From Octopus vulgaris (Eukaryota): DNA of 64,000 bases. The translations under genes were made by a program, and so were the position numbers. Positions 20,760 to 20,940 of the stretch are shown here, piece after piece (the first letter of the stretch is position 1; every line of letters starts with the position of its first letter). A model generated the notes under the pieces. That model did not search any database. It saw only the letters and a program-made list of their open reading frames with translations, and was not told the DNA's origin. The stretch is taken from the NCBI GenBank assembly GCA_951406725.2, contig OX597821.1:37386001-37450000 (forward strand), written 5' to 3'.

Positions 20760-20940
20760 CTTGCTGGAATTGATATATCAGTTCCATTCTAGCAAAAACT
20801 GTCTGATGAACGGCAACGAGAAACTCAGAGTAACAGATTTTGTTGAATTTTCTGCTGCTTAAAATAAAGCATATTACTCTACCACTGGTATTTGAGTACT
20901 TTTTTTTCCACCTTGTTTCACATTTATGTGTTTACTCCGG
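20760..20940 (+). mobile_element. 181-bp hammerhead-bearing insert within (TA)n (Penelope pLTR or retrozyme-like)
   Basis: Unique sequence between TA arrays 20677-20759 and 20941-20988. Contains a hammerhead followed by AATAAA (20863-20868). Confidence 0.7.
20792..20843 (+). ncRNA. Minimal type-I hammerhead ribozyme
   Basis: GCAAAAa-CTGT CTGATGA a-CG-gcaa-CG-a GAAA CTC-a-GAG TA^ ACAG-aTTTTGT. Intact CUGAUGA and GAAA core, GUA cleavage triplet, stem I of about 10 bp. Confidence 0.8.

What the first reader, a model, noticed from the sequence alone, without database searches (positions are those of the whole stretch)
20760..20940. Minimal hammerhead ribozyme cassette nested in a (TA)n microsatellite
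Seen: a 181-bp ORF-less insert bounded by pure TA arrays, with a complete type-I core (CTGT CTGATGA aCGgcaaCGa GAAA CTCaGAG TA^ACAG), an extended stem I and a downstream AATAAA. Established: minimal hammerheads with tiny stems II/III typify Penelope-like pLTRs and non-LTR retrozymes and often cleave as dimers; some PLEs prefer (TA)n targets. Inference: a non-autonomous, ribozyme-processed, microsatellite-homing retroelement mobilised by PLE RT/GIY-YIG, of which decayed copies occur in this window.
Basis: partly seen in the sequence, partly recalled or inferred. Interest (0 to 1): 0.75.

Follow-up and report, generated by a model that had tools for sequence, protein, structure and literature searches.

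The report
Truncated end of Hydra-clade Penelope retrotransposon
This hammerhead-ribozyme motif is the cut-short end of a young, protein-coding Penelope-like jumping gene with thousands of copies in TA repeats, not a separate mini-element; most copies stop at one fixed point, likely the start of the element's RNA, which offers a test of how these elements copy themselves.

Summary
The motif is real and correctly placed, but the cassette is not a family of its own. [quoted passage not shown] Its 5' junction is unique in the genome, and no other copy lies in the window. The 40-nt hammerhead occurs 3,290 times exactly. It is predicted inactive as a monomer and to fold as a double hammerhead; cleavage is untested. 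Copies end at two fixed points 71 nt apart, as in the in vitro PLE model (PMC11167929). Of 100 unbiased arms, 33 start within 6 nt of the ribozyme's 5' edge and 1 at the cut site. None of 53 ORF-start copies begins in that region of the preceding unit. This suggests run-off from a defined RNA start, plus a second endless template (circle or multimer). The scan noted the run-off idea before in other genomes. Verdict: new family of a known clade.

The parts
20677..20759 (.). (TA)n target array, left side
   Evidence: 100% pure, 41.5 copies
20760..20769 (-). Likely remnant of the inverted short arm: C (the usual first base of inverted arms) plus about 9 nt matching the reverse complement of 20786-20795 with one mismatch, joined through GAAT microhomology. 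Junction unique in the genome.
   Evidence: sequence; comparison with L110-L113. Origin is inferred.
20767..20940 (+). 3' 174 nt (pLTR end + tail) of a Hydra-clade PLE; unit positions 3224-3397 of the 3,397-nt unit in L031 (unit = window minus 17543)
   Evidence: 99.4% identity to many copies
20786..20791 (+). 5' 'wall': pile-up of arm starts (unit 3243-3248) at the 5' base of the extended stem I; putative RNA start
   Evidence: 33 of 100 arms; 0 at 3230-3242; transcription start inferred, not shown
20786..20848 (+). Ribozyme domain with extended stem I
   Evidence: predicted fold
20799..20836 (+). Minimal type-I hammerhead: 2-bp stem II closed by A.A, GNRA loop, palindromic stem III with 1-nt loop; predicted cut 20832/20833
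   Evidence: layout nearly that of Hydra-2_aMil in File S2 of PMC8557442
20863..20869 (+). AATAAAG: fixed terminus A, where the inverted arms of other copies end (unit 3326)
   Evidence: (62 of 120 arms)
20870..20940 (+). 71-nt 'tail' between termini A and B; terminus B at 20940 (unit 3397)
   Evidence: (55 of 120 arms end at B)
20941..20988 (.). (TA)n target array, right side

Best explanation
The insert is the 5'-truncated 3' end (hammerhead-bearing pLTR plus tail) of a young, high-copy Penelope-like retrotransposon with Hydra-clade hallmarks, likely inserted into (TA)n by the element's own RT/GIY-YIG protein. Shown: identity to the end of a 3.4-kb unit with an intact 711-aa ORF, two fixed termini, TA flanks, and both arms of an insertion coming from one source. 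Inferred: the endonuclease nicks both strands of (TA)n, and each DNA end primes reverse transcription internally on the same uncut RNA, one at site A (20869) and one at site B (20940). The two cDNAs are then joined head to head at microhomologies. Most arms run off a defined RNA 5' end at 20786, probably the transcription start (about 0.6). Longer arms, including this one (19 nt past that point), come from templates with no end there: read-through multimers or ribozyme-made circles. The hammerhead is predicted to cleave only as a dimer or with protein help, and was not cut in the RNA that made this copy. The solo copy is likely dead on arrival.
For: Parent: 8 of 126 B ends run on into the next unit, 67 nt before the ATG. 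Intact 711-aa ORFs occur in 6 of 10 ORF starts examined, three of them 97-98% identical, and there are 112 exact ORF-start matches. Hydra motifs: RWK37, DKT113, CxC/FX5C linker at 562, CxxC667, CxH695 (against section 11 of PMC8557442); 29 of 40 residues identical to Hydra-1_Obim in one RT stretch (count by eye). Termini: 62 A + 55 B of 120 arms; 118 of 126 B ends and 111 of the 112 A ends that do not continue into the tail are TA-rich, against a 6.7% background. One source: arms differ 0.86% within insertions and 3.1% between them; a subfamily marker is concordant in 40 of 40 covered pairs; pairs are 22 short-short, 17 long-long, 3 mixed (Fisher p = 1e-8); in the 17 long pairs either arm can be the longer (9 A, 7 B, 1 equal). 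Wall: plus the step in exact 20-mer counts from 2,007 (unit 3238-57) to 3,258 (3247-66). Dimer: the monomer MFE buries CUGA (-13.0); unconstrained co-folding gives the double hammerhead (-28.2). In vitro precedent for two RT start sites, extension of both strands and dispensable cleavage: PMC11167929.
Against: No Pfam or PDB match confirms the RT/EN, and the single-sequence fold was uninformative (pLDDT 35). Clade assignment rests on motifs and a by-eye comparison with cut supplement sequences, not on a tree. The linker reads CNF rather than CNC in 8 of 11 copies. The unit (3.4 kb) and tail (71 nt) are longer than the published <3 kb and 30-40 bp. No RNA 5' end was observed. The predicted dimer advantage is only about 2 kcal/mol. 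In vitro RT initiation was at non-homologous sites in Poseidon, whereas here both termini adjoin short TA-like words.
Confidence: 0.9

Rival explanations
1. One reading: a self-propagating non-autonomous mini-element (retrozyme-like), mobilised in trans.
For: 76 of 100 arms start at or 3' of the wall and are under about 155 nt, and they outnumber ORF starts by far (9,489 against 112 exact 20-mers). Solo copies keep the putative start, the ribozyme and both priming sites. Retrozymes are proposed PLE derivatives (bioRxiv 10.64898/2026.07.22.740005).
Against: The 5' junction is unique and apexes vary between insertions. No tandem array of a short unit was seen in the loci fetched. The same markers occur in short and long arms (site 3318 A/T: 32/18 short, 53/13 long). 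In the one PLE tested, the RNA needs ORF sequence downstream of the RT start, which solo ends lack.
Confidence: 0.06
2. The family inserts from the ribozyme's 3' cleavage product.
For: Among 226 arms broken near the cut, about 21 of 71 junctions in the 100 listed fall at the cut or 1 nt from it (hand count), against about 11 expected.
Against: That excess is confounded by a 4-nt microhomology. Only 1 of 100 unbiased arms starts at 3288-3292, and 0 of 53 ORF-start copies begin at 3256-3326 of the preceding unit. This insert holds the whole uncut core.
Confidence: 0.02
3. The wall is not an RNA end but an RT stall or a fold-back hot spot at the CTAG palindrome.
For: 12 of 100 arms start at 3246, the CTAG centre, and a weak hairpin lies just upstream.
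Against: Solo arms joined to host DNA also start at 3243 (L155, L184). 49 of 73 first-pass arms that reach 3260 stop at 3241-3260, but 0 of 35 second-pass copies do (nearest 3239). Caveat: second-pass copies are selected for processive RT.
Confidence: 0.15
4. Chance motif or assembly artefact.
For: No Rfam hit; weak folding z-score.
Against: 3,290 exact copies. Public DNA runs hold 0.57-0.72 of the element's words (these may include the source sample). Sister motifs keep CG/CG while the loop and closing pair vary (311 hits against 1 control).
Confidence: 0.01

Closest known systems
Hydra clade of C-terminal EN+ Penelope-like elements (Craig et al. 2021, PMC8557442), e.g. Hydra-2_Amil, Hydra-1_Obim
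   Same: Single ORF with RWK, DKT, CxCX5C-type linker, CxxC and CxH around the conserved E and N; (TA)n insertion; type-I hammerhead near the 3' end with palindromic stem III and 1-nt loop (stem I, core and stem III as in Hydra-2_aMil except the loop base); partial tandems, inverted 5'-truncated arm, one-sided tail.
   Different: A different family from Hydra-1_Obim (unrelated stems; protein differs). Stem II has 2 bp closed by A.A, shorter than any Hydra entry in File S2 (3-7 bp, often U.U). Unit 3.4 kb, tail 71 nt. Thousands of 99%-identical copies; about half of sampled arms belong to subfamilies with U4C.
Poseidon of Anolis carolinensis (PAc; Frangieh et al. 2024, PMC11167929)
   Same: Two fixed RT start sites that bound the tail, both target strands extended, AT-rich targets, ribozyme cleavage not needed for insertion.
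   Different: Another clade. There the hammerhead overlaps the start codon and RT starts inside the ORF; here both sites lie upstream of the ATG. A 5' run-off wall is not reported in the parts I read.
Minimal PLE hammerheads (Cervera and de la Pena 2014, PMC4209133) and 2-bp stem II variants (Perreault 2011, PMC3088659)
   Same: Mostly solo motifs from truncated PLEs, palindromic helix III, predicted dimer action, low activity; 2-bp stems II and a 10.1-11.1 mismatch (U.U) are known.
   Different: Lacks the G10.1-C11.1 pair and the long helix II of those motifs. I found no test of A.A at that position in the passages read.
Animal non-LTR retrozymes (bioRxiv 10.64898/2026.07.22.740005)
   Same: Non-coding, type-I hammerhead, PLE-related.
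   Different: Defined as tandem repeats with a hammerhead in each unit. This is a solo end contiguous with an autonomous element.

Membership tests
Hydra-clade PLE | Single ORF, RT followed by C-terminal GIY-YIG EN, no N-terminal EN | tested here: met
   711 aa; YRDDG at 344, GVVY..YTGASE..FKTR at 580-609; similarity to a Pfam RVT_1/GIY-YIG-bearing PLE, E 3e-8; no direct Pfam hit
Hydra-clade PLE | RWK motif present; DKG modified to DKT | tested here: met
   RWK37, DKT113
Hydra-clade PLE | CxCX5C linker; CxxC and CxH flanking the conserved E and N | tested here: met
   CNCKNESSC in 2 of 11 copies, CNF in 8, CNY in 1; CKLC667, CRH695
Hydra-clade PLE | (TA)n insertion preference | tested here: met
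   118 of 126 B ends; the other 8 are tandem junctions
Hydra-clade PLE | Hammerhead in the pLTR | tested here: met
Hydra-clade PLE | Generally short (<3 kb) | tested here: not met
   3,397-nt unit with a 1.2-kb 3' region; described as a tendency, not a strict criterion
Hydra-clade PLE | RT groups with Hydra in a phylogeny | not tested
   reference proteins were visible only as cut text in the supplement and were not entered into tools
EN+ PLE insertion | Partial tandems (pLTR), inverted 5'-truncated arm, one-sided tail | tested here: met
Type-I minimal hammerhead | CUGANGA and GAAA boxes, A15.1-U16.1, UH site, three stems | tested here: met
   10.1-11.1 is A.A
Type-I minimal hammerhead | Self-cleavage | not testable with these tools
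   bench assay needed
Non-LTR retrozyme | Tandem short units, each with a hammerhead | tested here: not met
   solo here; the only head-to-tail tandems seen in fetched loci are of the 3.4-kb unit
Non-LTR retrozyme / non-autonomous family | Copies share their own 5' boundary and lack a contiguous coding parent | tested here: not met
Non-LTR retrozyme | Abundant small circular RNA | not testable with these tools
   only contig-level runs not on record as RNA

The most novel reading that the evidence does not exclude
This family records two RNA templates. A linear transcript that starts at the ribozyme's 5' edge is primed near its 5' end from both target strands and gives the thousands of 84-155-nt run-off stubs. 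An endless unit-length circle, cut by the two pLTR hammerheads acting as a dimer in cis and then ligated, gives the long, full-length and more-than-unit copies, none of which stops at that point. The hammerhead would then be what lets an internally priming retroelement make full-length offspring.
Probability: 0.25. Interest if true: 0.75.

Novelty: new member of a known kind. Interest (0 to 1): 0.35.

Why it matters
As an object it is ordinary: one stub of a known PLE clade. Its value is as a model. The family is young, very abundant, has intact ORFs and sharp ends, and the role of PLE hammerheads and the origin of tandem and inverted structures are stated to be open (PMC8557442; PMC11167929). 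The contrast between a hard 5' wall in first-pass arms and none in ORF-start copies gives a cheap test (5' end mapping, divergent RT-PCR across the cut site) of whether circles are the productive template. It may also explain why genomes hold thousands of solo minimal hammerheads.

Tried and rejected
Rfam at gathering and E-value thresholds: no hammerhead. Pfam and PDB searches with the ORF: nothing significant. AlphaFold2 without an alignment: pLDDT 35, not used. The protein atlas gave no answer. Sequencing runs: no RNA holder listed. Four guessed-RNA contig sets were laid on the pLTR-ORF junction; they gave no joints or start/end pile-ups, and contigs cannot show them, so they count neither way. 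My first descriptor script had a matching bug and was redone. My first sample (68 loci, L041-L108) was conditioned on an exact 40-nt hammerhead and so missed other subfamilies and shorter arms; L091 was dropped as a duplicate of L090, leaving 67. One search exposed the bias, and the wall was re-counted on the first 100 matches of a downstream 20-mer (65 loci). A Naiad assignment, first considered from recall, was rejected because the EN is C-terminal. Identity with Hydra-1_Obim was rejected. AATAAA as a poly(A) signal is unsupported: no A tails were seen. No cap-derived extra G is evident at 3243 in the two solo arms read by eye. Lunse et al. 2017 on dimeric PLE hammerheads was not held (known to me from recall only). 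The search for U4C activity gave one paper whose U4C passage was not displayed, so that stays open. Supplements of the bioRxiv preprint were closed, and those of PMC11167929 and PMC4209133 were not read; they may bear on whether the run-off wall is in print.

Full report
Observation. The predicted cut is after 20832. A core-plus-stems descriptor hits this one site in the window and none in 200 shuffles. Rfam does not detect it. No second copy of the family lies in the window.

What it is. A genome search gave 1,344 candidates, 40 of them scored, at 98-100% identity over 20767-20940. Many extend further upstream, and two of the 30 fetched run on downstream into an ORF. L031 holds a 3,397-nt unit between direct repeats with a 711-aa ORF. 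Intact ORFs occur in 6 of 10 starts examined, and 112 exact ORF starts exist. The protein has RWK, DKT, a CxC/FX5C linker, CxxC and CxH. These are the features given for the Hydra clade in Craig et al. 2021 (PMC8557442; I read the abstract, sections 10-12, passages, and parts of supplementary Files S1, S2 and the sequence file). That paper already lists (TA)n targets and hammerheads for Hydra, including an octopus family, Hydra-1_Obim, which is related but distinct (29 of 40 residues in one RT stretch, by eye; different stems). The host was not identified by any search; earlier scan notes on this genome call it a cephalopod. The window's 5' junction occurs once in 2.8 Gb. Its first 10 nt likely remain from an inverted arm (inference).

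The ribozyme. The 40-mer has 3,290 exact copies. Stem I, the core and stem III match Hydra-2_aMil except for the loop base. Stem II has 2 bp closed by A.A. Other subfamilies have G, U or C at 11.1, a GGAA loop, and U4C in roughly half of the 67 arms tallied. Sister motifs keep CG/CG with other loops and U.U closure. Two-bp stems II and U.U closure are known (PMC3088659, passages). The monomer is predicted to bury CUGA, and two molecules co-fold unprompted into a double hammerhead (-28.2 against 2 x -13.0 kcal/mol). This agrees with the low, dimer-dependent activity reported for PLE motifs (PMC4209133, parts 1-2 of 4 read). Cleavage is untested.

How it inserts. In 67 loci, 62 of 120 arms end at unit 3326 (window 20869) and 55 at 3397 (20940), usually head to head. 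Ends are TA-rich in 118 of 126 B cases, the rest being tandem junctions. The arms of one insertion are closer to each other than to other insertions (0.86% against 3.1%), share a subfamily marker in 40 of 40 pairs, and are both short or both long in 39 of 42. Either arm can be the longer, which argues against simple self-fold-back. This matches the only reconstituted PLE: both strands extended, two internal RT starts bounding the tail, cleavage dispensable and protein-assisted (PMC11167929, parts 1-2 of 4 read). Twin priming on one RNA is therefore inferred with fair support.

The wall. In an unbiased set (first 100 matches of a 20-mer downstream of the cut, 65 loci), 33 arms start at 3243-3248, none at 3230-3242, 43 at 3251-3295 and 24 further upstream; one starts at the cut. 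Exact 20-mer counts step from 2,007 to 3,258 across this point (subfamily variants lower both). Position 3243 is the 5' base of stem I and sits in a pyrimidine-A-pyrimidine context that I recall as initiator-like. PLE starts are known to lie in the pLTR. Of 53 ORF-start copies (40 newly fetched loci plus 9 held, out of 112 matches), 35 run upstream of 3240 of the preceding unit, 18 stop in the tail or the unit start, and none starts at 3240-3326 (nearest 3239). So the wall is likely the end of one template class, and long copies likely use templates without that end: multimers, or the circles proposed in PMC4209133. The window's arm passes the wall by 19 nt and belongs to the second class.

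Against my reading: no tree, no profile match, no RNA evidence, a modest excess of junctions at the cut among 71 hand-counted cases, and selection for processive RT among ORF-start copies. Self-propagation of solo ends is not strictly excluded.

Prior art. Seven paper searches (listings only unless named above, plus part 1 of 5 of the retrozyme preprint) showed no report of the run-off wall. That library lacks most subscription papers. Earlier scan notes in other genomes describe two-ended priming and run-off at the start. I had noted the pile-up, before those look-ups; they are not independent support.

Verdict. Real feature, new family of a known clade, first reading partly supported. Interest 0.35, carried by the testable two-template pattern.

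Noticed in passing
window 20513-20676 (+), directly left of the TA array: Decayed copy (81-86%) of another high-copy repeat (3,834 candidates). Its family copies carry hammerhead words in permuted order (GAAA first, CTGATGA last) among several complementary blocks; the window copy has lost the CTGATGA block. It resembles the 'rewired hammerhead' of earlier notes on this genome.
   Followed up: partly
window 22119-22624 (-) and 44635-44802 (-): Old Hydra-like RT remnant (33% and 29%, E 1e-7) and a weak EN-like remnant (E 0.002).
   Followed up: no
window 1739-3214 (-), 50106-50297 (-): Remnants similar to a Neptune-like PLE ORF (clade label from recall).
   Followed up: no
window 19963-20380: SINE-like repeat split by (TA)n; it recurs beside many loci (label from recall).
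   Followed up: no
window 21065-21430: About 370-bp imperfect fold-back, MITE-like (read by eye).
   Followed up: no
L031 3280-4725: 481-aa ORF of a different PLE family (weak RVT_1 and GIY-YIG hits) directly upstream of the intact Hydra copy; another Hydra-like remnant at 1760-3194 (-).
   Followed up: partly
genome-wide, e.g. L148-L182: About half of sampled arms belong to subfamilies with a U4C change in the catalytic box, yet they amplified to thousands of copies.
   Followed up: partly
L116-L127 and one search list: At least three further hammerhead families with palindromic stem III (311 hits against 1 control); one lies downstream of a Hydra-like EN (L127).
   Followed up: no
L088, L087: Complex insertions with full units in tandem and inverted arrangement, one or more with an intact ORF.
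   Followed up: no
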